A stretch of 64,000 nucleotides of DNA from a virus (IMGVR_UViG_3300021197_001931:1-64000); one strand, 5' to 3'. Positions 7,392 through 40,400 are shown, counted from the stretch's first letter. The notes: generated by a model from the sequence alone, not told the origin. Numbers and translations are program-made.

Positions 7392-8705
7392 ATGGCTAAG
7401 AAAAAAATTTATGTGATCGACACTAGTGTCTATCTAACTGACGCTCAAGCGATCTACCAATTTGGCAATAACGATATTGTCATTCCACTTAAAGTTCTAG
7501 AAGAAATAGATAAACACAAAAAACGCCAAGATGGTGTTGGTTCTCATGCAAGAAAAATTATAAGAATTCTTGATGAGTTGAGGGCTAAAGGAAATCTACA
7601 AAAAGGTGTGAGAATAGAAAAAGGTAAGGGAATTCTTAGGGTTAAGGGTTACCACGCACTCACAGAACTGCCGTCAGACTTGAACCCAAATCTAGCTGAT
7701 AATATCATCATTGGAGCTGCCTTAACCGAGAGCATAGAGAATCCTAGTCGAAAGGTGATAGTTGTATCCAAAGACGTGAACATGCGCGTTATATGTGACT
7801 CTGTGGGCGTTGTTGCGGAGGATTTTAAAGCCGAGAAGGTTTTAGATAAAGACTCACAGCTATATTCTGGATTTGCTAGTGTTTTGGTGGACGATCAAAT
7901 AATCGACCAATTTTATAATGGAGAACCAATATCTTTGGATGAAGAGTTAGGGGCTTGCCCAAATGAATTCATCATGTTGGTTTCGAATGCAAACGAGAAG
8001 AAATCCGCTTTAGCTAGATACATAAACCCCCACGTTCCATTGGTTAGGGTGAACGAACTTAAAGATGGCGTGTGGGGAGTCCGTGCTAGAAACAAGGAAC
8101 AATCATTTGCTCTAGATATTTTAATGAACCCCGAGATTCCTATAATCTCATTAGTTGGCCGCGCAGGCTGTGGAAAAACCTTGTGTGCAATCGCTGCTGG
8201 TATGGAGCAATGCTTGGGCAGCAAGACATATAATAAACTTATTGTGTCTCGCCCCGTTCAACCTATGGGTAAAGATATAGGCTTCCTACCAGGTACTCTG
8301 GAGGAGAAGATGATGCCATGGCTAGCACCAATTAGGGATAATTTAGAATTTCTGATGGATGGAGACAAGGATACTTTAGATATGTATCTAGAGCGTGGCC
8401 TAATAGAGATTGAGGCTCTTACATATATTCGTGGAAGATCAATAGCAAGTGCCTTCATCATAATTGACGAAGCTCAGAATTTAACAAGCCACGAATTAAA
8501 GACTATAATTACTAGAGTTGGCGAAGGAACAAAAATAGTTTTAACAGGAGACATTGAACAAATAGACAACGCTTATATTGATCAATCGTCAAATGGGCTA
8601 ACATATGCGGTAGAAAAATTTAAAGCATATGATCTATCCGGCCACGTTACGTTAAAAAGGGGAGAGAGGTCAAAAGTTGCTAGCTTGGCAGCTAAAATCT
8701 TATAA
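7392..8705 (+). CDS. phoH: PIN-domain + PhoH ATPase (PhoH2/YlaK type)
   Basis: N-terminal VIDTSV...ADNII...SKDVNMR PIN motifs; GRAGCGKT Walker A; IGFLPG, RGRS, IIDEAQN. Confidence 0.92.
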   Translation: MAKKKIYVIDTSVYLTDAQAIYQFGNNDIVIPLKVLEEIDKHKKRQDGVGSHARKIIRILDELRAKGNLQKGVRIEKGKGILRVKGYHALTELPSDLNPNLADNIIIGAALTESIENPSRKVIVVSKDVNMRVICDSVGVVAEDFKAEKVLDKDSQLYSGFASVLVDDQIIDQFYNGEPISLDEELGACPNEFIMLVSNANEKKSALARYINPHVPLVRVNELKDGVWGVRARNKEQSFALDILMNPEIPIISLVGRAGCGKTLCAIAAGMEQCLGSKTYNKLIVSRPVQPMGKDIGFLPGTLEEKMMPWLAPIRDNLEFLMDGDKDTLDMYLERGLIEIEALTYIRGRSIASAFIIIDEAQNLTSHELKTIITRVGEGTKIVLTGDIEQIDNAYIDQSSNGLTYAVEKFKAYDLSGHVTLKRGERSKVASLAAKIL

Positions 8706-18319: not shown

Positions 18320-19165
18320 ATGGGATTAGGTGGATATTTAACTTGGACTGCTGTTGCAAGAGAGCTAGTTAAAAACAATAAAGCAAAAAAACTATTTCCA
18401 TCTGAAGTGCATGGGAATAAATATAAGGAAGTGAAGAGCCCAATATGGCTTAATAATCCATACTTGTCTACAGACAGACAAGAGCTTATAGAAAAGCAAG
18501 CCGCAGTCTTGCCTTTAAATAATCGAGAAATAAGTTATTGTAAATATGATGACGCTGTAAGGTGCGTTCAACGAGCCGATAAGCACTGCATTGAACAAAT
18601 GTGTGATTTCTATGGATTAAAAGATCCAGAAATAAAATGTGATTTATTTTTTTCTGACGAAGAACACAGAGATGTAGACAAAATAATCTCAGGCCTTAGT
18701 GAGAGGTTTATAACAATTGAACCACATTCAAAGAAATCATATACTCCAAATAAAGAATATTCTTTTGAAAAGTGGCAGAAAATAGTCAACGTGCTTTCAA
18801 AAGAGATACAAATTGTCCAGGTCGGCAACAAGGATATGCCAATTTTAGAAAATGTTGTTAATATGGTGGGATCAACTACCTTTAGGGAGTGTGCTGGAGT
18901 GATTGGAAGATCCGAATTGTTCCTAAGCACTGAGGGAGGTTTAGCTCATGCCAGCACAGCAGTGAATACAACAGCATTAATAGTTATGACAGGATACCAG
19001 TCTCCAGTTCTCTGGTCATACCCACAGAATATAAACGTTTATATAGGCAACCATGGCCCCTGTGGGTTTAAGATACTTTGCAAAGAATGCGTTCAAGATA
19101 TACACATGCACGATGAAAGCGAAATAGCTGAAAAAGCTATGGAATTTTTAAGGGGTTTGGAATGA
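18320..19165 (+). CDS. GT9-family (heptosyltransferase-like) glycosyltransferase
   Basis: MGLGG N-terminus, KEYSFEKW, FLSTEGGLAHASTAV. Confidence 0.75.
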   Translation: MGLGGYLTWTAVARELVKNNKAKKLFPSEVHGNKYKEVKSPIWLNNPYLSTDRQELIEKQAAVLPLNNREISYCKYDDAVRCVQRADKHCIEQMCDFYGLKDPEIKCDLFFSDEEHRDVDKIISGLSERFITIEPHSKKSYTPNKEYSFEKWQKIVNVLSKEIQIVQVGNKDMPILENVVNMVGSTTFRECAGVIGRSELFLSTEGGLAHASTAVNTTALIVMTGYQSPVLWSYPQNINVYIGNHGPCGFKILCKECVQDIHMHDESEIAEKAMEFLRGLE

Positions 19166-20040
19166 ACAAAAAGCCAGTAGTCCTCGCTTCTGACCACAAT
19201 GGTATCAGCCTTAAAAAAAGTCTTTCTACTTTTTTAAAACAAAAGGGTTATATTTGTTTAGATATTGGGCCATTTGATCATTCTAAAAAGGTAGACTATG
19301 TTGACTATGCAAACCAACTTTGCCAAATTATAGCTAATGGTGACGCTGATCGAGGAATTTTAATTTGTGGCACCGGAGTTGGAATGAGCATCGCTGCTAA
19401 TAGGTTTTCCGAGATTAGGGCGGCTTTGGTTCATAATGTTCTTACTGCTCCAAAATGTAGAGAGCACAATAATTCTAATGTTTTGTGCTTAGGATCTTGG
19501 GTAACCTCCGAAGCGGAGAGTGAAGAAATTCTTAGCCTATGGATGGATACGCCGTTTGGTGAAGGTCGCCATGTAAAAAGAATTGAAAAAATTTCCAAAA
19601 AGGGTGAGGATGAAATTGTTTTTGCAAATGGAGTTTTTGATATTCTTCATACTGGTCACCTTGAGCTTTTGCGATTTGCTAAAAGCTTGGGAGGTAAGCT
19701 TGTAGTTGGGATTAACTCAGACCGAGCAGTAAAGGCCCTCAAGGGGCCAACACGTCCCATAAATAACGAGAGTGATAGAAAGAAAATGCTAGAATCAATA
19801 GACTGCGTTGATGAAGTTGTTGTTTTTGATGATACAGACACCAAGTCTGTAATTGCCTCTGTGTGTCCTGATGTGCTTGTAAAAGGCGGGGAGTGGACTG
19901 CCGACCAAGTAAGGATCCGAGATGAGGTTCCTGGTAATATAAATATAAAAATCTACCCTCTTGTGGCCGATTATTCCACTACAAATGTTCTAAAAAAAAT
20001 AAAGACTATCGATGGGTGGCAGAAAAGTGGAAATTCTTAA
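19162..20040 (+). CDS. Fusion: RpiB/LacAB sugar-phosphate isomerase + HldC/RfaE-II type nucleotidyltransferase
   Basis: ASDHNG, VDYVDY, ICGTGVGMSIAANR, REHNNSN, FGEGRH; then NGVFDILHTGH, GINSD, KGPTRPIN, VKGG, YSTT. Confidence 0.9.
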   Translation: MNKKPVVLASDHNGISLKKSLSTFLKQKGYICLDIGPFDHSKKVDYVDYANQLCQIIANGDADRGILICGTGVGMSIAANRFSEIRAALVHNVLTAPKCREHNNSNVLCLGSWVTSEAESEEILSLWMDTPFGEGRHVKRIEKISKKGEDEIVFANGVFDILHTGHLELLRFAKSLGGKLVVGINSDRAVKALKGPTRPINNESDRKKMLESIDCVDEVVVFDDTDTKSVIASVCPDVLVKGGEWTADQVRIRDEVPGNINIKIYPLVADYSTTNVLKKIKTIDGWQKSGNS

Positions 20041-20968
20041 TAAAATATCTCAAAAACGAGTTTTGGTATTGGGCGATACCATTTTAGATAAAACGGTTAA
20101 ATGCCAAACAATAGGGCTTTCATTGGAATCTCCTACCCTGAAAACCAAAGAGGTGGGGAGGGAGATCGCACTTGGAGGCGCTGCCAATGTAGTCAAAAAT
20201 TTGTTGGCGTTAGGGTGTGAATGCACTTTCCTAACGGTTTTAGGTAATGATGAGTATCTTAAATATTATGAAGATTGGAAGTCCAAATCGTTACGATTGC
20301 GCCCCCTGATTACAAAAAGGCAAAATGTAGTAAAGAGCAGATATTGGGTAGAGCGCGGAAATGTAAGTTATAAATACTTGCAAATAAACAGGGGTGATAA
20401 AGATAAATTAAAAAAAAATGAATTTAAAAAATTGTATTCCATTTATGAAGAATGTATAAAAAATGTAGACGCCATTGTCTTAGTTGACTATAATAATGGC
20501 ATATTTTTAGATTCACAATATATAGAAAATCTTATTATTGCGGCTAAAAAGGTGGGAGTTCCAACCGTCTCTAGTTCTCAAATTTCAGATGGATGTAATC
20601 GATATCCTTACTTTAAAAACTCAACGTATATTTGCATGAACCAAGCTGAGGCTTCCTCTAATTTAAGAAATTTTTCTCCGAGTGATGATACAATAATACA
20701 ACTTGTCTCTATTTTAAATTCCAATGTTTGTGTAACTCTGGGAGACAAAGGGTCCATTTTTAGTGATGGTGTGGATATTTTTCGTGAACCACCAAGTAAA
20801 GTAAATGTGATGGATCCATGTGGCGCTGGTGATTCGTTTTTGGCCGCATTCTCTGCTTGCTTGGGGGACAATAATCTTAAATTTTGTAATAAATGGGCAT
20901 CACTTGCCACAACAAAGCTTGGGACAACATGTCCACAAGTGGAGGATCTAAATGAGCCATTCTGTTAA
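20012..20968 (+). CDS. PfkB-family sugar kinase, HldA/RfaE-I like
   Basis: VLGDTILD, GGAANV, VTLGDKG, DPCGAGDSF. Confidence 0.85.
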   Translation: MGGRKVEILNKISQKRVLVLGDTILDKTVKCQTIGLSLESPTLKTKEVGREIALGGAANVVKNLLALGCECTFLTVLGNDEYLKYYEDWKSKSLRLRPLITKRQNVVKSRYWVERGNVSYKYLQINRGDKDKLKKNEFKKLYSIYEECIKNVDAIVLVDYNNGIFLDSQYIENLIIAAKKVGVPTVSSSQISDGCNRYPYFKNSTYICMNQAEASSNLRNFSPSDDTIIQLVSILNSNVCVTLGDKGSIFSDGVDIFREPPSKVNVMDPCGAGDSFLAAFSACLGDNNLKFCNKWASLATTKLGTTCPQVEDLNEPFC

Positions 20969-21638
20969 AAAGATGGTCCTAGAGGCAAATCAGTGGATTG
21001 TGTCTACAGGACTTGTATCATTAACTTGGGGAAATGTAAGCGCATTATCTACAGATAGGCAAAGAGTAATTATCAAGCCTTCTGGTATTGATTTAAAAAC
21101 TGCTACTCCCGAAGACATGTCTGAGTTAAGCCTCTCCGAGAATTATATTTCTGGAAAAAAGCCATCAGTAGATACGCCAACTCACGTTTGTTTGTATCAT
21201 AATTTTAAAAACATTGGGTCCGTTGTACACACTCATTCAAAGTATGCTACAATATGGGCTCAAGCCTATAAAAATATTCCATGCTTTGGAACAACACATG
21301 CAGATTATTTTGATGGGTCAGTACCTTGCATAAGGCCACCAACACCTAAAAAAGTTAAAGATAATTATGAGACTTACACCGGATATTGTATAGTGGAATA
21401 CTTCGAGGACAAAAAGATAGACCCGTTAAGAGTGCCGGGTGCATTAATAGGAGGCCACGGTGTTTTTTGTTGGGGCGAAACTGTTGAAAAAGCTCTGGAA
21501 AATGCTTTTGTTTTAGAAAAGGTTGCAGAGATGGCGTATCACACTAGGCTGCTAGGGCATAAGCGATCTTTGCCAAAATATATTTTACGGAAACATTTTG
21601 ATAGAAAACACGGAGATAAAAAATATTATGGCCAATGA
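20952..21638 (+). CDS. araD: L-ribulose-5-phosphate 4-epimerase (class II aldolase family)
   Basis: TWGNVS, IKPSG, KPSVDTPTH, HTHS, GTTHADYF, HFDRKHG..YYGQ. Confidence 0.9.
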   Translation: MSHSVKKMVLEANQWIVSTGLVSLTWGNVSALSTDRQRVIIKPSGIDLKTATPEDMSELSLSENYISGKKPSVDTPTHVCLYHNFKNIGSVVHTHSKYATIWAQAYKNIPCFGTTHADYFDGSVPCIRPPTPKKVKDNYETYTGYCIVEYFEDKKIDPLRVPGALIGGHGVFCWGETVEKALENAFVLEKVAEMAYHTRLLGHKRSLPKYILRKHFDRKHGDKKYYGQ

Positions 21639-22038
21639 GGCAAAGTACGGTCGCCAAGAACTTCCTCCGGTGAGCGGGGTAATCAAGGATATCGATAAAT
21701 ATTGGGGCAATATAAAAACTCTTTTTGAAAATGATCAGTATACTGTGAAGAGGATTTATATGCGCGCTGGTACACAGAGTAGCATGGAGTACCATGTTAA
21801 CAAACAAGAAGCATATTACATAGAAACAGGTCGCCTTAAGGTTGGAACTCGAATTGGTAGGGCAAAAAATACCTCATTGATCTTAAACGAGGGAGATGTA
21901 TTCCACATTCCAGTAGGTTTTATGCATATGAGGATAGCCTTAGAAGACACAACAATCATTGAATTTTCTACACTAGATGATGATGCAGACTCTCATATTG
22001 TGGAAGATGGAAAAACATATAAACACATAGAGGAATAA
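21628..22038 (+). CDS. Cupin-domain protein (sugar isomerase/epimerase-like)
   Basis: KYWG, SMEYH..KQE, GDVFHIPVGFMH, IEFST. Confidence 0.8.
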   Translation: MANEAKYGRQELPPVSGVIKDIDKYWGNIKTLFENDQYTVKRIYMRAGTQSSMEYHVNKQEAYYIETGRLKVGTRIGRAKNTSLILNEGDVFHIPVGFMHMRIALEDTTIIEFSTLDDDADSHIVEDGKTYKHIEE

Positions 22039-22042
22039 TATA

Positions 22043-22711
22043 ATGAAGCTTTTTTTAGACACAGCAAATATTGAACAAATTGAAGACGCATTTAGAACTG
22101 GGGCCATCTCTGGTGTAACTACAAATCCGTCCTTGTTATCAAAGGAGCCAAAGGCTGACTTTTACGAACACATACAGAAGATCGCAGATCTATGCTCCTC
22201 TAGAGGCAATGGGTGCCCACTAAGTGTGGAAGTTTTTGCCAAGGAGCCTAGAGCAATGGTTGATCAGGCAATGAGGATTGTTAATACTTTGGATTATGAT
22301 AATGTAAATATTAAAATTCCTGTGGGCTACGAGGAACTAGCAGCTATCAATACTCTGTCCAAGGAAGGAGTTAGGGTTAACTGTACATGTTGCTTTACGA
22401 CGACACAAATGCAACTTGCCGCAGCCTCTGGTGCTAGGTATGTTTCCCTGTTTTATAACAGACTCATAGATGTGGGGGGAAATCCCCTGGAGGTGTTAAC
22501 AAGAACTCGTGAATTTATTGAACAAAACAATTTAAATTCAGAAATTATTGCAGGTAGCATTAGAAACTCTTATGATCTGGAAGATTGCTGGAATGCAGGG
22601 GCACATATTGTTACAGCCGGGAGCAATGTTGTAAAGAAGGCAATGGCACACGTTAAGACAGACGAGTCTGTTAATGGATTTCTATCTGATTTTGAAAAAT
22701 GGATAAAGTAA
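22043..22711 (+). CDS. talC: Transaldolase / fructose-6-phosphate aldolase (TalC/MipB type)
   Basis: LFLDTAN, GVTTNPSL, NIKIP (Schiff-base Lys), IIAGSIR. Confidence 0.9.
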   Translation: MKLFLDTANIEQIEDAFRTGAISGVTTNPSLLSKEPKADFYEHIQKIADLCSSRGNGCPLSVEVFAKEPRAMVDQAMRIVNTLDYDNVNIKIPVGYEELAAINTLSKEGVRVNCTCCFTTTQMQLAAASGARYVSLFYNRLIDVGGNPLEVLTRTREFIEQNNLNSEIIAGSIRNSYDLEDCWNAGAHIVTAGSNVVKKAMAHVKTDESVNGFLSDFEKWIK

Positions 22712-23028
22712 CTTACGTTTTTGACATAGATGGCACTATTTGCACGAATAGCGGGCCAAACTACGAGCTATCTTCGCCCTACCCAGATAGGATAAACAAG
22801 ATAAACGCACTTTATGATCAAGGGCATACAATTTTGTTTTTGACTGCTAGGGGCATGGGAAGACATAAGAATAATCAAATTAAAGCAATTAATAGTTTGT
22901 ATGAGTTAACCAAAGAACAGCTAGATTCATGGGGTGTAAAGTATCACGATCTATTTTTAGGAAAACCACAAGGTGATCTTTACATTGATGATAAAGGGAT
23001 TAACGATAAAAAGTTTTTTGATTGTTGA
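22699..23028 (+). CDS. Small HAD-superfamily phosphatase (capsule-biosynthesis phosphatase type)
   Basis: FDIDGTIC, LTARG, GKP, YIDDK. Confidence 0.85.
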   Translation: MDKVTYVFDIDGTICTNSGPNYELSSPYPDRINKINALYDQGHTILFLTARGMGRHKNNQIKAINSLYELTKEQLDSWGVKYHDLFLGKPQGDLYIDDKGINDKKFFDC

Positions 23029-25285: not shown

Positions 25286-26245
25286 GTGAATTTTATTCTA
25301 GTTGAGATGACGTTCTTACGATATTATATACCTCTTATTGCAGAGGGTAACAAAAGGGGTATAAAATCAAAAGTTTTTGTTGGCCCAAGTCATAAGTACA
25401 ATTGTCCACTAAGATTCAAGGGAGTGTTACTTGAACTTTCAAGGGAATATAATTTTGAAATTATAGAAGCCTCTAAAGCAAAAGAATATAATGGATATTT
25501 TTTCTTAATTGAGGCAACGGCCATAGATCTATTGAACCCCAATCAGAAAAAAGTTTCTTTATCTTATACAACAACTTTTTCTTATCATGCTCACACGTAC
25601 AGAGACAAAGTTGATTACATAGTATATCCTAGTGAGTTTATGGTTGATTTTTACAACCTAAAAAGAACAGAAAAGGATTTATGTCTTGGAGTTCCAAAAT
25701 ACGATATTGTCTTGAATAAGGAAGAAATAAATAAAAAGTATAACTTAACTGACAACAAAAAGGCCCTTTTTATAGCGCCAAAATTAAGAGATCTTAATAA
25801 AATAGATCTATCAAGAATATACAAAATTTTTAAAAATGAAGGATACGATATTTTAGTAAAAACAAGAGGAAAAGACCCAATTCCCAATAATCTTAGAGGG
25901 GATCGATATTTTACAGACAATAGTTGGCACCCACACACTTCAATGGAGCTAATGGAAGCCTCCAATATAGTGGTAAACTTTAGTTCCTCTGTTATTAAAG
26001 AAATAGTCATGCTTAGAAGACCAGTGGTAAACTTTGACATTAAGCCATTTAAGATGTGTTTGCCATTCTTGTATGATTATGAATATTGTCGTAATCTTAA
26101 AAAAGATGCAAACGAACAGCAGATAAAAAATGCAATTAAAGAGTTGACGACAAGACCGTTAGATGATATATTTGATTTATCAATAAAAAGTCATTTATTT
26201 AGTGGCAATTCATCAAAAAGAATTTTAGATCGACTAGGATTATAG
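25286..26245 (+). CDS. GT-B fold protein (CDP-glycerol glycerophosphotransferase / sialyltransferase-like)
   Basis: LGVPKYD, NFSSSVIKE, GNSSKRILD; immediately upstream of neuA-neuB. Confidence 0.55.
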   Translation: MNFILVEMTFLRYYIPLIAEGNKRGIKSKVFVGPSHKYNCPLRFKGVLLELSREYNFEIIEASKAKEYNGYFFLIEATAIDLLNPNQKKVSLSYTTTFSYHAHTYRDKVDYIVYPSEFMVDFYNLKRTEKDLCLGVPKYDIVLNKEEINKKYNLTDNKKALFIAPKLRDLNKIDLSRIYKIFKNEGYDILVKTRGKDPIPNNLRGDRYFTDNSWHPHTSMELMEASNIVVNFSSSVIKEIVMLRRPVVNFDIKPFKMCLPFLYDYEYCRNLKKDANEQQIKNAIKELTTRPLDDIFDLSIKSHLFSGNSSKRILDRLGL

Positions 26246-26808
26246 TGAAAATAGTTGCAATTATACCTGCTAGGGGCGGAAGCAAAAGATTAAAAAGAAA
26301 AAACATATACCCAATATGGGGAAAGCCAATGCTATATTGGTCAATTTTAGCTTGTAAGCAATCAAATTATGATATTGATGTTTGGGTTAGCACTGAAGAT
26401 ACAGAAATTGCAAATATTGCTAAACAATACGGAGCAAAAGTGGTGACTAGAGACGATTCTTTAGCTGATGATAAGACTTTTAAACAAGCAGTCATACGAG
26501 ATGCTGCTAGTAAAATTAATAACTTAGAGGGTAAAAAAGATATTTATATATCACTACAAGCAAATTCGCCAAACATACATTCTGAAAACATAGACGATGC
26601 TATCGATGTTCTCCTAAAACACAATAGAAAAGAAATTATTAGTGTTGATGAGAATTTAATGCAAAACGCAGCCTTCCGAGTTTTTAGAGGCGATTATGTT
26701 TTTCAAGAGGATTTGAGCACATGTTGTGGTGTTTTCGTTTGCCCACTAGAGGATGTTCATACCTTGGATGATGTAAAACAAATAGAGAAAAAAAGGAGAA
26801 GAACGTGA
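26245..26808 (+). CDS. neuA: CMP-nonulosonate (acylneuraminate) cytidylyltransferase
   Basis: IIPARGGSKRLKRKN, GKPM, VSTED, LQANSP, DVHTLDD. Confidence 0.88.
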   Translation: MKIVAIIPARGGSKRLKRKNIYPIWGKPMLYWSILACKQSNYDIDVWVSTEDTEIANIAKQYGAKVVTRDDSLADDKTFKQAVIRDAASKINNLEGKKDIYISLQANSPNIHSENIDDAIDVLLKHNRKEIISVDENLMQNAAFRVFRGDYVFQEDLSTCCGVFVCPLEDVHTLDDVKQIEKKRRRT

Positions 26809-27518
26809 CAGATATTTATATAATCAGCGAACTGTGTGGCCAATGGGGTGGATCTATCCGAAGAACGGAGCAGATGATACTACAATCAAAACTTGCTGGT
26901 GCCGATGCTGTAAAAGTTCAACTATACGACACATATCGAATGCCGGGAGAGAATCGTCAAATTTGGGAGTACCTCTCGATGACCAAGGAGCAGTTCCTAC
27001 ATCTTAAAGATTTTTCCGATTCTCTAAATATAGACTTTTTTGCATCTGCTTTTCATCCTGATAGGTTCCAGTGGATTTTGGACGCAGGATTGCAAACAAA
27101 TAAAATTGCAAGTATGCTGGTAAATCATGACCCTACCCTTTGCAGGGAAATGATTGACAGCGGCATGTTAACATACTGCTCTCTCGGACGCTGGGATGGA
27201 GAGGGTTACCCCTTTGAACAAGAGAATGTAAAATATTTTCACTGTGTATCAAAGTATCCACATACAATTGATGAGGCACTAGCATTAATGCCTGATAGAT
27301 TTGATGATCGTCTAGTCGGATACAGCGACCACACAGACAGCATTGAGGCTTGTGTTGAGGCTGTTAAACGAGGGGCAAAGATACTAGAAAAACATTTTAC
27401 AATAGACAAGGGCCTCCAGAGCAAGACCGAGGGGGCACACACTTGTTCTATGGTTATGGAAGAGTTAGCAGAGTTAAGAAATTTGTGTGATAAACACACG
27501 GGAGGAAATAATGGGTAA
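26805..27518 (+). CDS. neuB: Divergent, short nonulosonate synthase (NeuB family)
   Basis: GADAVKVQ, KIAS, HCVSKYP, GYSDHT, ILEKHFT; 237 aa, no C-terminal SAF domain. Confidence 0.85.
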   Translation: MTDIYIISELCGQWGGSIRRTEQMILQSKLAGADAVKVQLYDTYRMPGENRQIWEYLSMTKEQFLHLKDFSDSLNIDFFASAFHPDRFQWILDAGLQTNKIASMLVNHDPTLCREMIDSGMLTYCSLGRWDGEGYPFEQENVKYFHCVSKYPHTIDEALALMPDRFDDRLVGYSDHTDSIEACVEAVKRGAKILEKHFTIDKGLQSKTEGAHTCSMVMEELAELRNLCDKHTGGNNG

Positions 27519-28710
27519 TAAAGTTTTTGTACTAGGTGGAGATGGCTTTTGTGGTTGGCCCACATCCTTACACCTTTCTAATAATGGATATGATGTTGTT
27601 ATAGTTGACAATCTTTCTAGAAGAAATATTGATAATGAACTTTTTTGTCAATCGTTAACTCCAATAAGCAATATTGAAACTAGAATTAATGCGTGGAAAG
27701 AAATAACTGGTAAAACAATTTCTTTTTATAATATAAATATAGCAACAGAGTACGACAATTTTCTCTCACTTTTGAAGCATGAGCGTCCGGATACGTTGGT
27801 ACACTTTGCAGAACAACGTGCTGCTCCTTATTCTATGAAGTCTGCAAAGAATAAGAGATACACAGTCAATAACAACCTTAATTCAACTCACAATGTACTT
27901 TGCTCTATTGTCGAATCAGGATTGGATGTGGCCCTTGTTCACCTTGGTACCATGGGCGTATATGGTTATAGCTCTGTGGGTCTAACAATCCCGGAGGGGT
28001 ACTTGGATGTTAAGGTTGATGCACCAGACGGAGAAAAAGAATTAAACATTATGTATCCTGCTAATCCAGGTAGTGTTTATCACATGACAAAAACGCAAGA
28101 CGCACTGTTTTTTAATTATTATAATAAAAACGATAAATTGAGAATTACTGACCTACACCAAGGAATTGTTTGGGGCACGAATACAAACGAGACCATGCTT
28201 GATGAAAGGCTAATTAATAGATTCGACTACGATGGGGACTATGGCACCGTTCTAAACAGGTTCTTGGTTCAAGCCGCAGTTGGGCACCCCCTTACAGTGC
28301 ACGGCACAGGTGGGCAAACTAGGGCATTTATACACATCTCAGACACGGTTAGGTGTATTGAGCTTGCGATTAAAAATCCACCCAATAAAGAGGATAAAGT
28401 TAAGATCTTCAATCAAACCACCGAAACACATAGGATTATTGATTTAGCTCGTAGAGTCTCTAAGTTTACGGGAGCTGAAATCAAGTTTTACAAGAATCCT
28501 AGAAATGAAGCAGTTAGAAACGATTTGAAAGTTTGTAATGATAACTTCTTATCTCTAGGCCTTAACCCAACAACACTAGAAAACGGATTACTAAGAGAGG
28601 TTGAGGAGATCGCCTCTAAATATAAAGATAGGTGCGATTTGGATAAAATTGTGAGCACCTCAGCCTGGGACAAAAATAAGAAAATAGGATTGTTAGATAA
28701 TCAAGAGTAA
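27511..28710 (+). CDS. sqdB: UDP-sulfoquinovose synthase
   Basis: GGDGFCGWPT, HFAEQRAAPYSM, HLGTMGVYG, PGSVYHMTK, TDLHQGIVWG, RFDYDGDYGTVLNRF, GHPLTVHGTGGQTR. Confidence 0.93.
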   Translation: MGNKVFVLGGDGFCGWPTSLHLSNNGYDVVIVDNLSRRNIDNELFCQSLTPISNIETRINAWKEITGKTISFYNINIATEYDNFLSLLKHERPDTLVHFAEQRAAPYSMKSAKNKRYTVNNNLNSTHNVLCSIVESGLDVALVHLGTMGVYGYSSVGLTIPEGYLDVKVDAPDGEKELNIMYPANPGSVYHMTKTQDALFFNYYNKNDKLRITDLHQGIVWGTNTNETMLDERLINRFDYDGDYGTVLNRFLVQAAVGHPLTVHGTGGQTRAFIHISDTVRCIELAIKNPPNKEDKVKIFNQTTETHRIIDLARRVSKFTGAEIKFYKNPRNEAVRNDLKVCNDNFLSLGLNPTTLENGLLREVEEIASKYKDRCDLDKIVSTSAWDKNKKIGLLDNQE

Positions 28711-31415: not shown

Positions 31416-32257
31416 GTATCATCGGGAACGGCTTTGTTGGGTCTGCTATAGCCCATGGGTTCTCATTGCATGGAAATATTAGGATTTATGACCTAGACCC
31501 AATTAAGTCAACACACTCTATAGCAGAGGTTGTAAATGGCTCTAAGTTTATTTTTGTCTCTGTTCCTACGCCTATGAAAAACGTATTAGGCGGGGACATT
31601 GATACTTCCATTATGTACTCCGTCTTTGATGAAATATCAGAAATTAACGATAGAGACGATAATATTTTTATTGTCAAATCCACAATTGTTCCGGGTACCA
31701 TGGAAAAATTAATAGAAAGATATCCGCTATTAAATATAATTCATAGTCCTGAATTCTTAACTGAACGAAGCGCCAGACTTGATTTTATTAATGCGTCTAG
31801 AATTATTTTAGGCGGGGATCCACCCCTCTTAGACGAGGTGGAGGGTCTTCTAAGGGAAAGATTCCCATACATACAAGTAATTAAAACCGATGTAACAACA
31901 GCCCAATTTATAAAGTATATGGCAAATTGTTTCTTTGCAACAAAAGTTTCATTTATGAATGAAATGAAGCAAGCAGCAAACGTGCTAAACGTTGACTGGG
32001 ATGATGCGATGCGAGGCCTTATAACTGATGGAAGAATAGGCAATTCTCATCTAGATGTTCCAGGACATGACGGATATAACGGCTTTGGAGGCAAGTGCTT
32101 TCCTAAAGATTTAAATGCTTTTATCGGATTGTTTAAACAAGTGGGTGTTGATCCAAAAGTTATGACGTCTGTTTGGGACAAAAATTTAGAAGTTCGACAA
32201 GAGTACGATTGGAGAAGCATCGAGGGCGCCGTATCTAAAGGAGAAGAAAATGAGTAG
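31403..32257 (+). CDS. ugd: UDP-glucose/GDP-mannose 6-dehydrogenase (short form)
   Basis: GIIGNGFVG, VPTP, KST, PEFL, KYMAN, GFGGKCFPKD. Confidence 0.9.
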   Translation: MENIGIIGNGFVGSAIAHGFSLHGNIRIYDLDPIKSTHSIAEVVNGSKFIFVSVPTPMKNVLGGDIDTSIMYSVFDEISEINDRDDNIFIVKSTIVPGTMEKLIERYPLLNIIHSPEFLTERSARLDFINASRIILGGDPPLLDEVEGLLRERFPYIQVIKTDVTTAQFIKYMANCFFATKVSFMNEMKQAANVLNVDWDDAMRGLITDGRIGNSHLDVPGHDGYNGFGGKCFPKDLNAFIGLFKQVGVDPKVMTSVWDKNLEVRQEYDWRSIEGAVSKGEENE

Positions 32258-33125
32258 ATGTTTGGTTACGGGACACCGTGGATACATAGGCTCCAAAGTA
32301 TATGCAGCCTTGCAGGACAGAGGCCACGAAGTAATGGGCATAGACTTGCAGGATGGGCATGATATATTAATCCGCCTAAAACCAGATACTGATGGAAAAT
32401 TTCATCCGCACTGGGCGTCGTTTAAACCAGAATATATATTTCATTTTGCAGCTATTCCAAGAGTTGTATACAGCATCGAGCAACCAGTCCATGTAATAGA
32501 GAACAACCTATTAAGCAGCCTCTATATTCTAGAGTTTGCAAGACATGTTGGAGCCAAACGAGTTATTTATTCTAGCTCTTCATCCGTAAGAGGGAATGGA
32601 AACGGGCCTGAAAGCCCTTACGCTGCGTCAAAATATATGCCTGAAAGCATGTGCAATGTTTGGTCTTCTTTATACGGCATAGATACTGTGTGCCTTAGAT
32701 ACTTTAACGTATATTCGCCGTGTCAAAACGCATCAGGTCCGTATGCCACTGCAATAGCAAATTTTATGGAGTTTATACGCCAAGATAGGGATCCATACAT
32801 TACGGGAGACGGAGAGCAGACCCGAGATATGGCGCACCTTGAAGATGTTGTCTCTGCAAATATATTTTGTATGAATCACGAAGGACCATTTGGTGGATCT
32901 TTTTTTGATGTTGGTACGGGAGACAATATTTCACTAAACGATATTAAAAAAATTGTTCTAGAATATTTTCCGGATACTAATTTTAAATATGTTGAAGACC
33001 GCCCAGGCGACGTTATGCACACAAAGGCAAATATTCAACCCCTTCGTGATCTTGGATGGCGTCCAAGAAATCAGATAAACAGTGGAATAAGAAGCTGTTT
33101 TAAATCTTTAAAAGATAATTTATAA
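32250..33125 (+). CDS. NAD-dependent nucleotide-sugar epimerase/dehydratase
   Basis: VTGHRGYIG, SSSS, PYAASK, RYFNVY, GDGEQTRD. Confidence 0.9.
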   Translation: MSRCLVTGHRGYIGSKVYAALQDRGHEVMGIDLQDGHDILIRLKPDTDGKFHPHWASFKPEYIFHFAAIPRVVYSIEQPVHVIENNLLSSLYILEFARHVGAKRVIYSSSSSVRGNGNGPESPYAASKYMPESMCNVWSSLYGIDTVCLRYFNVYSPCQNASGPYATAIANFMEFIRQDRDPYITGDGEQTRDMAHLEDVVSANIFCMNHEGPFGGSFFDVGTGDNISLNDIKKIVLEYFPDTNFKYVEDRPGDVMHTKANIQPLRDLGWRPRNQINSGIRSCFKSLKDNL

Positions 33126-37475: not shown

Positions 37476-40400
37476 ATGACAGTTGAAGTAGGCAGTTATA
37501 TCAAGAGAGTGAGGTGGTTGCAAGAGATCATTGAGCCTCTTTTTGCTAGCACATACATTAGAAGATTTTTTGAAGACTTAGGTACTGGTGATCCCCTACA
37601 GTCAAATCGGGCAGATGGTTATGTAAACGGCGAGGTTATTGTTTATGGTGACGGTGGCCGTGATCCATACGATCCTTATTTTCAAAATGAAGATTTAGAG
37701 TTTATAAATCCAGAGGATGGGCCAACATTTAGGGTCTATTCAGAGTGGCGCATAAGGTTTTTAAGCGAATGGAGCGACTCAGAACTTATCTCCTGGCTTG
37801 CAAATACCATGTCCCCAAGAATATTTCAAGCTCTTACTTATCTTACTAACGTCTATGGTCCGCTAGATAAGTACGATGAAATGCTGGGGAATAATTGGGG
37901 CACAGCGACAATGGCGGCTATGAGAGACTATTCCTCTGGAGTTAACACAAATTTTTTCGATAACCTAGGCATCCGCCACACCACTCTTGGCCCAGCAGCC
38001 CCGGACATAGACGTACAAATTATTAATGCTTCAAAAGTCGTAAGGACGCTTTTGATATTTGATGATGGGTATGGTTGCGTCTCTAGAGAGGAGAGGCAGA
38101 ACCCAGAACTATATTCATATCCAGATAAAATGCCTGTTAAATTCTCTACGACTTATTTCACATCGAGATTTAAGGCATTAGGGTATCCTCCACATGGAGA
38201 GCCAGCAGGAGTATTTTCTTATTCAACCCGTGTTGGGATAGAGAATCACCCAGATCGCCGAGATGGCGCGTGCCCATTTCCGATAAATCCAGCGTACTTT
38301 ACTGCATGGACTGAAAATGCATTCCCACAGGAGGAGGAGGTAGAGGTCACAGAATACAGTTCAATTGGAACTGAGCATGGTAGCTATGATTATACAACTT
38401 ATCGATACCCTGGCGTTAGAGAGATAGCATGTCCGATACTCCCGGATCCAACGTTTCTTGGAGCAGGGGAGGCAGGAATTCCTCCAACTCTACAGGCTAG
38501 GCACCCATGTCCTGAAACAGATTTAACAGAGGAGTTTATAAGAGAACCAGTATGCACGCCAGATAGTAGTTTTTTGGAACCAGAATGGACAGCGGAGATG
38601 CGTTCTTTTTTGAATTCCAGAGTTTGTGAATATTATGTTCCTGTCCAAACCCCATATGGGTGCCCAGGAGGGGATGGACTGGCAGAATATGCAAGAGAAT
38701 TTTCTGAACAAGCCGTTCAAAGTTTACTTGACTTTTTGAACAAGGAAGCTACCGAGCAACAGACAAATATACTAGTAAATTTTGTTTTAGAAGAATTATA
38801 CTATGACTTTGATAAAGCTCCAAATGTTGATCTTAAGTTATTATACAGGTGGCCGTTTGCTCTGGTTAAAGCACTAAAGCTTGATGACAGAAATTCCCCC
38901 TCAATTAACGAATCTCCAAATGCGGGAAGCGATGTGGAATTTTCTTCTTCAAGCTTACTTTCAGATCTTGATACATTAAAATTAATTTTAGAAATTATAG
39001 GACCACAACAGGTAGATCTCTGGTCATCAGAGAAAGCGAAAATTATAATTACTGGTACAGCGAGAGAGGCAGACATCTTACAAGAGTCGCGCAACATACT
39101 AACCCTTAAGACTGCAATAACTGACTTTTTAAATTCAAATAATTACGTTTTCCCACCAGCAGTGGTTGAACAGGCTGCAGGGTCTCAATTCCCCATACCA
39201 GATAGTGGCGTAGCGGCTGACAGTCTAAAGATCGTTTATGACGAACAATATAATTTTGTATCTATTTTTGTGCGTGGTGATGGCTCTGATTATTTACAAT
39301 TAAATGAGAGGCTTTTGCCAGAAGACAGCGCTCTTCGAAATCAGACAATGGTGTCCTACTTGGCAAACTTAAATGACATAATCCTTGATTACAATAATAG
39401 CCAAGAGTTGCAGTTACTACCATTCTTACAAAAATATCATCAACCTGCTGTTCGTATTTCGTATCAATCGGGAATCTCAGAGCCCACACTTCTTCCAGAC
39501 AATTGCTCAGGTGGAGTTCTTGAAGATGTTACCAATTCGATATTAGATAGCTTAGTTGATTCTGCAAATGAGTTTGTTGGCAAGTTTGCTAGTAATTTGT
39601 GTATGACATCTGAACAAGTGGCACAAAAGGAGCGCGATTATCTTTCATCTCTGGAGAGTCTTAAAGATATTGTAAGCGAGCAGAATTTAAAAAATGTTTT
39701 TCTACAAGATCCGCTCATAGCGAATATTGATAGGCTCATAAAATCAATCAACAATAGTGAGGATGTGGTTAAAGCTGCTTGGGCAAACTTGTTTGATAAA
39801 ATGACCGCATGTGGCTTATTTAATCTTGTAACAAAAACAATAGAAACAATTGCAAAAGTAGACTTCTGTGGGCTATCGCCAGAGGCCATCTTGACAGTAG
39901 CTATAAAATCATCTTTAAAAAATATAGACACGGGCGTATTGCGAAGAATATATGAAGGACTGCCAGAAAATACAAAAAATGAGTTACTTGATAACTACTC
40001 AGAAAGATTTAGACAGTTTATTGAGGATAGTGGATATAATGGATCAACTGCATTCCCATGGGATCTAGAGGAGCAAAACAGGCAAGCAGAGAGAGACTCC
40101 AGAGAAAACAGAATAATATATGATGGTTCTTTGTTTACTTCTCCATCACTGGAGCAAACACAATCTAGGTACGTAAATTCTTATAGGGCCGGATATCGTG
40201 CTGGCTTAGAGTATGACCCACTTTCGGAGGACGAGGAGGAAATAGATTTATCATCCGGACAGTTTGATGAAGGATCTTTTTGGGCTGGGTATGTAGCTGC
40301 CAGAGGAGATGTAGAGCTAGGAATACCAGGAGACCCAAACTCAATTGTTCCTCCTCGCAGATCGGATGTATTAACTGATGCTGAGAGATTAGAAACTAAT

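What the first reader, a model, noticed from the sequence alone, without database searches (positions are those of the whole stretch)
18320..23028. Higher-carbon sugar pathway without GmhA, built on an RpiB-nucleotidyltransferase fusion
Seen, contiguous: GT9, [RpiB isomerase::HldC-type nucleotidyltransferase], HldA-type kinase, AraD epimerase, cupin, transaldolase, HAD phosphatase. Established: canonical ADP-heptose synthesis uses the SIS-fold isomerase GmhA, HldE (kinase fused to nucleotidyltransferase), GmhB and HldD. The lincomycin octose route uses the same logic starting from a transaldolase (LmbR, then isomerase, kinase, phosphatase, nucleotidyltransferase). Here GmhA is absent from the window, an RpiB-fold isomerase takes its place and is fused to the last enzyme, and two extra stereo-editing enzymes are present. 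Inference: the transaldolase makes a C7 or C8 ketose phosphate, AraD/cupin alter its stereochemistry, RpiB converts it to the aldose, and kinase/phosphatase/NTase give an NDP-heptose or NDP-octose of non-standard configuration for the GT9. These genes would usually be mis-called pentose-phosphate auxiliary metabolic genes.
Basis: partly seen in the sequence, partly recalled or inferred. Interest (0 to 1): 0.85.

Follow-up and report, generated by a model that had tools for sequence, protein, structure and literature searches.

The report
GmhA-free activated higher-sugar cassette in phage
An uncultured 160-kb marine phage carries a tightly packed seven-gene cassette, shared with many phages, tiny archaea, CPR bacteria and soil bacteria, that most likely builds an ADP-activated seven- or eight-carbon sugar by a heptose-like route whose first enzyme is a cupin rather than GmhA; no paper I found describes it.

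Summary
Window 18320-23028 holds seven overlapping + strand genes: GT9, RpiB::HldC-like nucleotidyltransferase, HldA-like PfkB kinase, AraD, cupin, transaldolase and a small HAD phosphatase. No SIS/GmhA domain occurs in the 161.7-kb record.

- The cupin resembles mannose-6-phosphate isomerase, and it, not RpiB, is the better candidate to replace GmhA.
- Of 80 viral loci found with a sister cupin, 62 hold only nucleotidyltransferase, kinase, HAD and cupin. These are the four activities of the ADP-heptose route, with no RpiB, transaldolase, AraD or SIS nearby.
- RpiB, transaldolase and AraD travel together as an add-on. All three keep their canonical catalytic and phosphate-binding residues.
- The phosphatase belongs to the 1xpj/AfhF-type family, not to GmhB.

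My reading is that the add-on builds a ketose phosphate the host does not supply. I favour ribose-5-P plus a C3 unit giving octulose-8-P, as LmbR does. The core then isomerises, phosphorylates, dephosphorylates and adenylylates it for the adjacent GT9. The product (C8, C7 or a pentose) cannot be settled by sequence.

This scan has flagged the same cassette before on other DNA. It is uncharacterised and is a new variant of a known kind.

The parts
18320..19165 (+). GT9-family glycosyltransferase (281 aa), presumed user of the activated sugar
   Evidence: PF01075 at 28.6 bits, gathering score 22. A GT9 lies within about 5 kb of the cassette in 5 of 5 cellular genomes tested, and it is the only GT9 in the Pacearchaeota and Parcubacteria genomes. 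Orthologues at 49-51% identity sit upstream of the fusion gene in L010 and L118.
19162..20040 (+). Fusion protein (292 aa): RpiB sugar-phosphate isomerase (residues about 1-146) joined to an HldC-type nucleotidyltransferase (about 147-292)
   Evidence: TIGR01120 at 150.9 bits, cut-off 138.65; rfaE_dom_II at 145.7 bits, cut-off 181.5. Best solved structures are C. thermocellum RpiB 3he8 and B. pseudomallei HldC 5x9q. D11, H12, C69, T71, H102, N103, R136, H137 and R140 are invariant in 23 family members. More than 120 clusters at 55-95% identity exist in metagenomes.
20012..20968 (+). PfkB-family sugar-phosphate kinase, HldA-like (318 aa)
   Evidence: PF00294 at 88 bits. Best NCBIfam match is rfaE_dom_I at 128 bits, far below its cut-off of 345; ribokinase scores 58. 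Best solved structure is HldA 4e84 at 42 bits.
20952..21638 (+). AraD-type class II aldolase-fold 4-epimerase (228 aa)
   Evidence: NF006047 at 283.8 bits, cut-off 257. About 50% identical to E. coli AraD (1jdi). N28, K42, S44, G45, S74, D76, H95, H97, T116, D120, H171 and Y229 are kept; only S75 is changed, to V.
21628..22038 (+). Mono-cupin, PMI-like; proposed ketose-P to aldose-P isomerase (136 aa from ATG 21628; the mechanical ORF starts at TTG 21598)
   Evidence: PF01050 at 26.7 bits (gathering score 23.6) and Cupin_1 at 40 bits. Conserved KYWG...EYH..K.E.Y...G.MH...DS.VEDG motifs. AF2 model with pLDDT 87 has a cupin fold. hhalign probability 99.4% to the cupin of the four-gene module. 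Start codon read.
22043..22711 (+). TalC-type transaldolase (222 aa)
   Evidence: PF00923 at 153 bits. Closest solved structures are T. acidophilum and B. subtilis transaldolases at about 130 bits, against about 79 for FSA. The Glu, Lys, Phe and Arg residues of transaldolases are kept, not the Gln and Tyr of FSA.
22699..23028 (+). Small cap-less HAD phosphatase (109 aa), 1xpj/TIGR01689 type
   Evidence: TIGR01689 at 37.7 bits. PDB 9iqw at 51.5 bits and 1xpj at 34.7 bits. No GmhB model matched.

Best explanation
The seven genes form one self-sufficient cassette for an ADP-heptose-like activated higher sugar that does not use GmhA.

Core, four activities:
- A PMI-like cupin converts a ketose phosphate of 3S configuration to the manno-configured aldose phosphate. 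This is GmhA's job.
- The HldA-like PfkB kinase phosphorylates O-1.
- The small HAD removes the distal phosphate. This is GmhB's job, done by another HAD family.
- The HldC-like domain of the fusion makes the NDP-sugar, probably ADP-sugar.
- The neighbouring GT9 transfers it.

Add-on, three enzymes. RpiB, transaldolase and AraD build a ketose phosphate that the host does not supply.
- Favoured route (about 0.35): RpiB gives ribose-5-P. Transaldolase adds a C3 unit from fructose-6-P to give octulose-8-P, as LmbR does in lincomycin biosynthesis. The product would then be an ADP-octose.
- AraD, acting on xylulose-5-P to give L-ribulose-5-P, would alter the configuration of the side chain in the cassettes that carry it.
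- A modified heptose is the alternative product.

Shown: gene content, family assignments, residue conservation, synteny and co-occurrence. Inferred: every substrate, the order of steps and the product.
For: 1. Conserved cassette. RpiB::NTase, PfkB, (AraD), cupin, TAL and HAD occur in 52 IMG/VR contigs and in DPANN, CPR, Acidobacteriaceae, SAR11 and Prochlorococcus-associated contigs.

2. Four-gene module. Of the 80 best viral loci found with the sister cupin, 62 have nucleotidyltransferase, PfkB, HAD and cupin, and no RpiB, TAL, AraD or SIS within 10 kb. The two cupins are homologous (hhalign probability 99.4%). The cultured cyanophage S-SM2 has this unfused set.

3. Cupin. PF01050 and GMP_PMI matches, plus a motif-by-motif parallel to type II PMI as I recall its consensus. 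JGI names the bicupin homologues 'mannose-6-phosphate isomerase-like'.

4. No GmhA. There is no SIS_2 in the phage record or in the Pacearchaeota and Parcubacteria genomes that carry the cassette.

5. Add-on travels together. In the cupin2 set, RpiB and TAL are both absent in 75 loci, both present in 3, and RpiB alone in 2. TAL is present in 50 of 52 fusion loci; the other two are cut by contig ends.

6. Both modules in one contig. Some contigs carry the extended cassette and the minimal module side by side (L093, L094, L096), which implies different products.

7. Canonical enzymes. RpiB, AraD and TAL keep their canonical active sites.

8. GT9 adjacency in 5 of 5 genomes.

9. The record holds no Rpe and no transketolase, so this is not a general pentose-phosphate boost.

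10. Precedents. The isomerase, kinase, phosphatase, nucleotidyltransferase logic is known for heptose (PMC11573728) and for phage UDP-arabinofuranose (PMC13326640).
Against: - No enzyme has been assayed.
- The PF01050 match is marginal: 26.7 bits here and 22.8-22.9 bits in two homologues.
- Fold searches do not separate isomerases from epimerases. The top match is the CapF cupin, a C3-epimerase, at Z 15.6, against PMI at 14.3 and lyxose isomerase at 14.0.
- The kinase and nucleotidyltransferase score below the HldA and HldC equivalog cut-offs.
- AraD's role is unresolved. No fusion-protein column tracks its presence, and AraD-less cassettes are interleaved with AraD-bearing ones.
- A SAR11 version has a divergent GmhA-like SIS gene in the same operon.
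- Ribose-5-P is abundant in cells, so the need for a dedicated RpiB is not self-evident.
- Octoses are almost unknown in glycans.
Confidence: 0.55

Rival explanations
1. First reader's scheme. The RpiB domain is the GmhA substitute. Transaldolase makes a C7 or C8 ketose phosphate, AraD (C4) and the cupin (for example as a C3-epimerase) edit its stereochemistry, and RpiB converts it to an aldose (allo-type, 2R,3R). Kinase, HAD and nucleotidyltransferase then activate it.
For: - Fusing an isomerase to the nucleotidyltransferase parallels the known GmhA/kinase/nucleotidyltransferase tridomain enzymes (PMC11573728).
- As I recall, RpiB-family enzymes prefer 3R ketoses, which a 3-epimerase acting on a transaldolase product would provide.
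- The best structural match of the cupin is the C3-epimerase domain of CapF (Z 15.6, rmsd 1.9).
Against: - The four-gene module has a cupin but no RpiB or SIS in 62 of 80 loci. Under this scheme that module would lack any aldose-ketose isomerase.
- The RpiB domain passes the RpiB equivalog cut-off and keeps the ribose-5-P phosphate-binding residues.
- AraD keeps the pentulose-5-P phosphate pocket.
- The cupin's only function-specific sequence match is to PMI.
Confidence: 0.15
2. [quoted passage not shown] The cupin replaces GmhA on host sedoheptulose-7-P. RpiB, transaldolase and AraD only push pentose-phosphate flux towards sedoheptulose-7-P, in the manner of auxiliary metabolic genes.
For: - HldA-like, HldC-like and GT9 homology.
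- The transaldolase is canonical.
- From my own knowledge, cyanophages carry talC as an auxiliary metabolic gene.
- Most cassette-bearing genomes have transketolase (18 of 22), so erythrose-4-P and sedoheptulose-7-P should be available.
Against: - AraD's product, L-ribulose-5-P, is a dead end for making sedoheptulose-7-P.
- The phage has no Rpe or transketolase.
- Contigs carrying both the extended cassette and the minimal module would then make the same sugar twice.
- The triad is kept in strict synteny in archaea, CPR and Acidobacteria, not only in phages.
- Transaldolase has been replaced by a different transaldolase subfamily in L023 yet stays in the operon.
Confidence: 0.15
3. The product is an NDP-pentofuranose. 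AraD makes L-ribulose-5-P from xylulose-5-P. The cupin (or RpiB) isomerises it to L-ribose-5-P, or isomerises xylulose-5-P to D-lyxose-5-P where AraD is absent. Kinase, HAD and nucleotidyltransferase then act as in the phage UDP-arabinofuranose route. RpiB and transaldolase feed the pentose pool.
For: - AraD and RpiB look fully canonical for C5 substrates.
- The HAD belongs to the 1xpj/TIGR01689 family. That family is linked to pentofuranose-5-P phosphatases, and the phage AfhF analogues match 1xpj structurally (PMC13326640).
- From my own knowledge, PMI-type cupins convert L-ribulose to L-ribose.
Against: - The kinase, the nucleotidyltransferase and the tightly linked GT9 all resemble heptose enzymes most.
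- AraD is missing from several complete cassettes.
- Transaldolase and RpiB would be mere helpers while the needed Rpe is absent.
- From my own knowledge, L-ribose and D-lyxose glycans are essentially unknown.
Confidence: 0.1
4. The genes are unrelated pentose-phosphate auxiliary metabolic genes and LPS genes that merely lie side by side.
For: Each gene on its own has a plausible housekeeping annotation.
Against: The same order, the overlapping reading frames and the RpiB::NTase fusion recur across phages, archaea and bacteria.
Confidence: 0.02

Closest known systems
ADP-L-glycero-beta-D-manno-heptose pathway (GmhA; HldE or HldA+HldC; GmhB; HldD) with GT9 heptosyltransferases
   Same: The same four-step logic: ketose-P isomerase, anomeric kinase, distal phosphatase, nucleotidyltransferase. 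The kinase and nucleotidyltransferase are homologous to HldA and HldC, and a GT9 is adjacent.
   Different: There is no SIS-fold GmhA; a cupin is proposed in its place. The phosphatase is of the 1xpj/TIGR01689 type, not GmhB. No HldD was identified. RpiB, AraD and transaldolase are added, and RpiB is fused to the nucleotidyltransferase. That architecture is not among the three HENase types listed in PMC11573728.
Lincosamide octose route (LmbR transaldolase, LmbN isomerase, LmbP kinase, LmbK phosphatase, LmbO nucleotidyltransferase), as I recall it; the held papers were listed but not read
   Same: A transaldolase is embedded in an isomerase/kinase/phosphatase/nucleotidyltransferase pathway. 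C5 plus C3 giving octulose-8-P would explain why RpiB and transaldolase travel together.
   Different: As I recall them, the isomerase (SIS), kinase (GHMP) and nucleotidyltransferase (GDP-forming) of the Lmb route belong to other families. That route serves an antibiotic, not a glycan with GT9. Use of ribose-5-P as acceptor by this transaldolase is untested.
Phage UDP-D-arabinofuranose pathway (SIS arabinose-5-P isomerase, AfhE kinase/pyrophosphorylase, AfhF HAD phosphatase), PMC13326640
   Same: A phage-encoded route with the same logic of isomerase, 1-kinase, distal phosphatase and nucleotidyltransferase, starting from a pentose-phosphate-pathway intermediate. Its small HAD has the same structural type (1xpj).
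   Different: The isomerase, kinase and nucleotidyltransferase belong to other families. The product there decorates DNA, whereas here a GT9 and a large glycan island suggest a protein or lipid glycan.
Unfused kinase/nucleotidyltransferase/HAD/cupin gene set of cyanomyovirus S-SM2 (SSM2_200, 203, 207, 210, 211)
   Same: Homologous kinase, HldC-like nucleotidyltransferase, small HADs (43-53% identity) and cupin (36%) in a cultured phage.
   Different: There is no RpiB fusion and no transaldolase in that cluster. It is annotated as heptose/LPS genes, with the HADs called 'phosphoheptose isomerase' and the cupin 'cysteine dioxygenase'. It is uncharacterised biochemically as far as I could find.

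Membership tests
ADP-heptose pathway | SIS-fold sedoheptulose-7-P isomerase GmhA | tested here: not met
   There is no PF13580 or PF01380 match at E<=1 in the 161.7-kb record, and none by tblastn in 52 related viral loci (a weak test). The record is estimated 72% complete and the host is unknown.
ADP-heptose pathway | HldA / HldE domain I heptose-7-P kinase | tested here: inconclusive
   rfaE_dom_I is the best family at 128 bits, but its cut-off is 345. HldA 4e84 is the best solved structure at only 42 bits.
ADP-heptose pathway | HldC / HldE domain II heptose-1-P adenylyltransferase | tested here: inconclusive
   rfaE_dom_II scores 145.7 bits against a cut-off of 181.5. Best solved structure is HldC 5x9q at 102 bits. 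The STT motif is present, with Tyr rather than Arg at position 5 (motif from PMC11573728).
ADP-heptose pathway | GmhB-type HAD-IIIA 7-phosphatase | tested here: not met
   The 109-aa HAD matches TIGR01689 (37.7 bits), 9iqw and 1xpj. No GmhB model is listed.
ADP-heptose pathway | HldD ADP-heptose 6-epimerase | not tested
   There is no SDR inside the cassette. The SDRs at 27487-28710 and 32250-33125 were not tested against HldD models.
GT9 heptosyltransferases | Pfam PF01075 match above the gathering score | tested here: met
   28.6 bits against 22. The protein is short (281 aa), and only weak hits to named heptosyltransferases were found. Donor specificity cannot be tested here.
RpiB (ribose-5-phosphate isomerase B) | Equivalog score, plus the catalytic Cys/Thr, Asp/His and Arg-His-Arg phosphate site | tested here: met
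   TIGR01120 at 150.9 bits against 138.65. About 48% identity to 3he8. D11, H12, D45, C69, T71, H102, N103, R136, H137 and R140 are invariant. Residues shown essential in LdRpiB (C69, H102, D45; PMC4783025 abstract) are present. The true substrate cannot be tested here.
AraD (L-ribulose-5-phosphate 4-epimerase) | Subfamily score, Zn ligands, Asp120/Tyr229 acid-base pair, phosphate pocket | tested here: met
   NF006047 at 283.8 bits against 257. The TIGR00760 equivalog scores 264.5, below its cut-off of 389. All listed residues are kept except S75, changed to V. Residue roles are recalled from the AraD structural literature.
Type II phosphomannose isomerase cupin (PF01050) | Profile match and cupin metal motifs | tested here: inconclusive
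   The window protein scores 26.7 bits against a gathering score of 23.6, but two homologues score only 22.8-22.9. The E/H-x-H, E and H ligand positions are conserved. The fold search lists PMI, lyxose isomerase and the CapF epimerase within 1.6 Z of each other.
Transaldolase (as against fructose-6-P aldolase) | Schiff-base Lys with Glu and Phe (transaldolase) rather than Gln and Tyr (FSA) | tested here: met
   The alignment to T. acidophilum transaldolase 3s0c shows SVEV (Glu), IKIP (Lys), S-L-F-x-x-R (Phe, Arg) and SIR. The score is 130 bits against 79 for FSA. Residue roles are recalled from the literature.
Lincosamide octose pathway | Transaldolase that uses ribose-5-P as acceptor; SIS isomerase, GHMP kinase, GDP-forming nucleotidyltransferase | not testable with these tools
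   A transaldolase is present, but its acceptor preference cannot be read from sequence. As I recall the Lmb enzymes, the other cassette enzymes belong to different families, so the cassette is an analogue, not a member.

The most novel reading that the evidence does not exclude
Marine phages, CPR bacteria, DPANN archaea and some soil bacteria share an undescribed C5 + C3 route to ADP-activated eight-carbon sugars (manno-octoses with variable side-chain configuration). A PMI-like cupin takes GmhA's role. Octoses would then be a widespread, overlooked component of viral and microbial surface glycans.
Probability: 0.3. Interest if true: 0.85.

Novelty: new variant of a known kind. Interest (0 to 1): 0.7.

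Why it matters
If the reading holds, three things follow.

- **A second start to the pathway.** The textbook ADP-heptose pathway would have a widespread alternative entry step, a cupin in place of GmhA. That matters for genome annotation. These genes are now named RpiB, FAD synthase, phosphoheptose isomerase or cysteine dioxygenase, and they would be counted as pentose-phosphate auxiliary genes.
- **A missed set of producers.** Surveys of NDP-heptose producers that require a GmhA homologue, such as the cross-kingdom HBE survey summarised in PMC11461863, would miss this whole class.
- **A new sugar donor.** The extended cassette may make a sugar not known from glycans, in phages that carry very large glycan islands. 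This bears on virion or host-surface glycosylation in the ocean.

The enzymes are small and soluble, so the question is directly testable.

Tried and rejected
- **Genome scan with the single protein.** A genome-contig scan found no relatives. The alignment-based scan was needed.
- **Fold searches of the cupin model.** Foldseek and VIA-align gave only generic cupin matches, with an epimerase, PMI and lyxose isomerase within about 1.6 Z. They do not decide isomerase against epimerase.
- **Fused forms of the cupin.** A search among longer proteins found only bicupins of 257-299 aa in the best 120 hits, and no fusions to other enzymes.
- **RpiB specificity and AraD.** I looked for alignment columns in the fusion protein that separate AraD-bearing cassettes (45) from AraD-less ones (11). 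None was found. The nearest AraD-bearing relatives of AraD-less cassettes are 44-82% identical per enzyme, too far apart to say whether downstream enzymes adapted.
- **Transketolase absence as an argument against erythrose-4-P.** Only 4 of 22 cassette-bearing genomes lack it. All four are small MAGs of unknown completeness, so the evidence is weak.
- **Literature.** Searches for the RpiB/nucleotidyltransferase fusion, for a cupin-type sedoheptulose-7-P isomerase and for PDB entry 9IQW found nothing relevant.
- **RpiB acting on L-ribose.** I recalled but could not confirm in the held papers that C. thermocellum RpiB acts on L-ribose. Only the reference was found.
- **Failed script.** One script call returned no answer and was repeated.

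Full report
**Observation**

The window is the first 64 kb of a 161,719-base IMG/VR virus record that CheckV estimates as 72% complete. Every long ORF lies on the + strand. Between 18320 and 23028 there are seven ORFs that overlap or abut. Pfam and NCBIfam assign them as follows.

| Coordinates | Assignment | Score |
|---|---|---|
| 18320-19165 | GT9 glycosyltransferase | PF01075, 28.6 bits (gathering score 22) |
| 19162-20040 | RpiB (residues 6-146) fused to an HldC-like nucleotidyltransferase (145-281) | TIGR01120 150.9 bits (cut-off 138.65); rfaE_dom_II 145.7 bits (below 181.5) |
| 20012-20968 | PfkB kinase | best family rfaE_dom_I, 128 bits (cut-off 345) |
| 20952-21638 | AraD | NF006047, 283.8 bits (cut-off 257) |
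| 21598-22038 | cupin | Cupin_1 40 bits; PF01050 26.7 bits (gathering score 23.6) |
| 22043-22711 | TalC/FSA-family transaldolase | PF00923, 153 bits |
| 22699-23028 | 109-aa HAD | best family TIGR01689, 'capsule biosynthesis phosphatase', 37.7 bits |

The cupin most likely starts at ATG 21628, which overlaps the AraD stop codon by 11 bases. No SIS or SIS_2 domain is found anywhere in the record.

**It is a conserved cassette, not an accident**

- The RpiB::nucleotidyltransferase fusion has more than 120 cluster representatives at 55-95% identity in public metagenomes. Sources name them 'ribose 5-phosphate isomerase B', 'FAD synthase' or 'rfaE nucleotidyltransferase domain'.
- Neighbourhoods of three of these, about 20 GTDB genomes and 52 IMG/VR contigs were compared by tblastn with the window's proteins. 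The order fusion, PfkB, (AraD), cupin, transaldolase, HAD recurs almost everywhere.
- Hosts of the cassette include Woesearchaeota and Pacearchaeota, Saccharibacteria and Parcubacteria, Acidobacteriaceae (on contigs of about 1 Mb), SAR11 single-cell genomes and Prochlorococcus-associated contigs.
- Variants include NTase-RpiB-NTase and RpiB-NTase-NTase forms (P0015 in L004; L006), bicupins of 257-299 aa, and a transaldolase of a different subfamily in L023.
- A GT9 lies within about 5 kb of the cassette in 5 of 5 cellular genomes tested. It is the only GT9 in the Pacearchaeota and Parcubacteria genomes.

**Which enzyme replaces GmhA**

A sister cupin ('cupin2') is 34% identical to the window's cupin, with hhalign probability 99.4%. 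It is very common in viral contigs, with at least 552 confirmed stretches.

Of the 80 best cupin2 loci, 62 contain nucleotidyltransferase, PfkB kinase, small HAD and cupin2. They have no RpiB, transaldolase, AraD or SIS within 10 kb. That module holds exactly the four activities of the GmhA/HldA/GmhB/HldC route, so the cupin is left as the only candidate isomerase.

The cultured cyanomyovirus S-SM2 carries this unfused set. Its two HADs are annotated 'phosphoheptose isomerase' and its cupin 'cysteine dioxygenase'.

In sequence, both cupins parallel the type II phosphomannose isomerase domain as I recall its consensus. K-Y/G-W-G corresponds to R-P-W-G. The H-x-H/E-x-H...E metal motif, the G-x-x-H motif and the acidic C-terminal D-S-x-V-E-D-G segment also correspond. 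JGI names the bicupin homologues 'mannose-6-phosphate isomerase-like'.

From established carbohydrate chemistry, a PMI-type enzyme makes 2S,3S (manno) aldoses from 3S ketoses. That is the conversion GmhA performs on sedoheptulose-7-P.

The structural evidence is neutral. The AF2 model (pLDDT 87) is a cupin. Its best matches include the CapF C3-epimerase domain (Z 15.6), a PMI (14.3) and D-lyxose isomerase (14.0).

In the Pacearchaeota and Parcubacteria genomes that carry the cassette there is no SIS_2 domain at all. The cassette therefore appears to work without GmhA.

**What RpiB, transaldolase and AraD do**

The three travel together.
- In the cupin2 set, RpiB and transaldolase are both absent in 75 loci, both present in 3, and RpiB is present alone in 2. 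By hand, the hypergeometric P is about 1e-4, not corrected for relatedness.
- In the fusion-selected set, transaldolase is present in 50 of 52 loci. The two exceptions are cut by contig ends.

Each looks canonical.
- **RpiB.** The domain is about 48% identical to C. thermocellum RpiB. D11, H12, D45, C69, T71, H102, N103, R136, H137 and R140 are invariant across the family. These include the residues found essential in Leishmania RpiB (PMC4783025).
- **AraD.** It is about 50% identical to E. coli AraD. It keeps the Zn ligands, Asp120, Tyr229 and all but one residue of the phosphate pocket (S75 is changed to V). That argues for a pentulose-5-P substrate rather than a C7 or C8 ketose.
- **Transaldolase.** It keeps the Glu, Lys, Phe and Arg set of true transaldolases rather than the Gln and Tyr of fructose-6-P aldolase.

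The record has no ribulose-phosphate 3-epimerase and no transketolase. The three genes are therefore not a general pentose-phosphate booster.

Several contigs carry the extended cassette and the minimal module side by side (L093, L094, L096). That implies two different products.

The simplest chemistry giving RpiB and transaldolase committed roles runs as follows: ribulose-5-P to ribose-5-P, then ribose-5-P plus a C3 unit from fructose-6-P to octulose-8-P (3S,4R), then the cupin to a manno-configured octose-8-P. This is the logic I recall for LmbR/LmbN in lincomycin biosynthesis, carried out with unrelated enzymes. It is inference. I put it at about 0.35, against about 0.2 for a heptose product within the same framework.

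**AraD's place is unresolved**

- AraD-like genes, in a canonical and a more divergent form, occur in most cassettes. They are truly absent from L104, L107/L108, L119 and from several cellular versions.
- No column of the fusion protein separates AraD-bearing cassettes from AraD-less ones.
- AraD-less cassettes are interleaved with AraD-bearing ones. Per-enzyme identity to the nearest AraD-bearing relative ranges from 44% to 82%, highest for the cupin.
- My best guess is that AraD converts xylulose-5-P to L-ribulose-5-P. RpiB, which I recall accepts both D- and L-ribose but could not confirm in the held papers, or the cupin would then take it on, giving a side-chain epimer.

**The phosphatase and the nucleotide**

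The HAD is not GmhB-like. Its closest solved relatives are 9iqw ('capsule biosynthesis protein', 51.5 bits) and 1xpj (34.7 bits). 1xpj is the structural match reported for the analogues of AfhF, the phosphatase of the phage UDP-arabinofuranose pathway (PMC13326640). [quoted passage not shown]

The nucleotidyltransferase domain carries the STT motif with Tyr, not Arg, at the fifth position. By the rule given in PMC11573728, that predicts ATP rather than broad NTP use. This too is inference.

**Rivals**

- **Ordinary ADP-heptose with flux helpers (about 0.15).** It does not explain AraD or the contigs with two modules.
- **An NDP-pentofuranose (about 0.1).** It fits the canonical AraD, the canonical RpiB and the HAD type. 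It does not fit the triple heptose signal of kinase, nucleotidyltransferase and GT9.
- **A complication for all readings.** One SAR11 genome has a very divergent GmhA-like SIS gene (63-64 bits against cut-offs of 209-276) in the same operon.

**Context**

The cassette sits in an island of about 22 kb (10739-33125) with:
- several GT4 and GT2 glycosyltransferases and several methyltransferases;
- a glycerophosphotransferase-like gene;
- a CMP-sugar synthetase and a NeuB-family synthase;
- a UDP-glucose dehydrogenase and SDR enzymes.

No exporter was recognised among the ORFs scanned. What the glycan decorates is unknown.

**Novelty**

I found no paper describing the RpiB/nucleotidyltransferase fusion or a cupin-type heptose or octose isomerase. 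The three HENase architectures listed in PMC11573728 do not include it.

This scan has flagged the same cassette at least seven times on other DNA, with similar readings. My cupin hypothesis was noted before I saw those entries. The co-occurrence counts, the residue checks and the S-SM2 link were tested here.

I rate it a new variant of a known kind, with interest 0.7.

Noticed in passing
window 7392-8705: A 437-aa protein joins an N-terminal PIN domain (92 bits) to a PhoH-like ATPase (172 bits). It lies just upstream of the glycan island.
   Followed up: no
window 10739-33125: An island of about 22 kb surrounds the cassette. It holds several GT4 and GT2 glycosyltransferases, several methyltransferases, DUF2334, a glycerophosphotransferase-like gene, a CMP-sugar cytidylyltransferase plus a NeuB-family synthase (26245-27518), a DUF4910/DUF2172/HTH_47 protein, a UDP-glucose dehydrogenase and two SDRs. 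No exporter was recognised among the ORFs scanned.
   Followed up: partly
window 37476-44738 and 48670-57468: Two giant ORFs of 2420 and 2932 aa, and a third of 1161 aa at 58483-61968, are presumably virion proteins. They were not analysed.
   Followed up: no
L139 (Synechococcus phage S-SM2, NC_015279, 152124-159725): In this cultured cyanophage the two small HAD phosphatases (SSM2_207, SSM2_210) are annotated 'phosphoheptose isomerase' and the cupin (SSM2_211) 'cysteine dioxygenase'. Together with SSM2_200 (kinase) and SSM2_203 (nucleotidyltransferase) they form the minimal four-activity module.
   Followed up: partly
L023 5676-6260 (SAR11 single-cell genome): A very divergent GmhA-like SIS protein (TIGR00441 at 62.9 bits, cut-off 209) lies in the same operon as a GT9, a Staphylococcus-type transaldolase and the rest of the cassette. 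That version therefore has three isomerase-type genes.
   Followed up: partly
L004 8001-9410; L006 7698-9008: Three-domain variants of the fusion exist: NTase-RpiB-NTase (469 aa, P0015) and RpiB-NTase-NTase (P0002, 464 aa). Many loci also carry a second stand-alone HldC-like nucleotidyltransferase.
   Followed up: no
L096 13679-15164; also L093, L094: A second nucleotidyltransferase, PfkB and cupin2 trio lies directly downstream of the extended cassette in the same phage contig. It may share the HAD gene that sits between the two.
   Followed up: partly
L001 1020-2740: A split transketolase-like pair (Transketolase_N, then Transket_pyr/C) lies in the same glycan cluster as the cassette, on a 162-kb contig binned as Deltaproteobacteria. 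By its size and content it may be a related phage.
   Followed up: no
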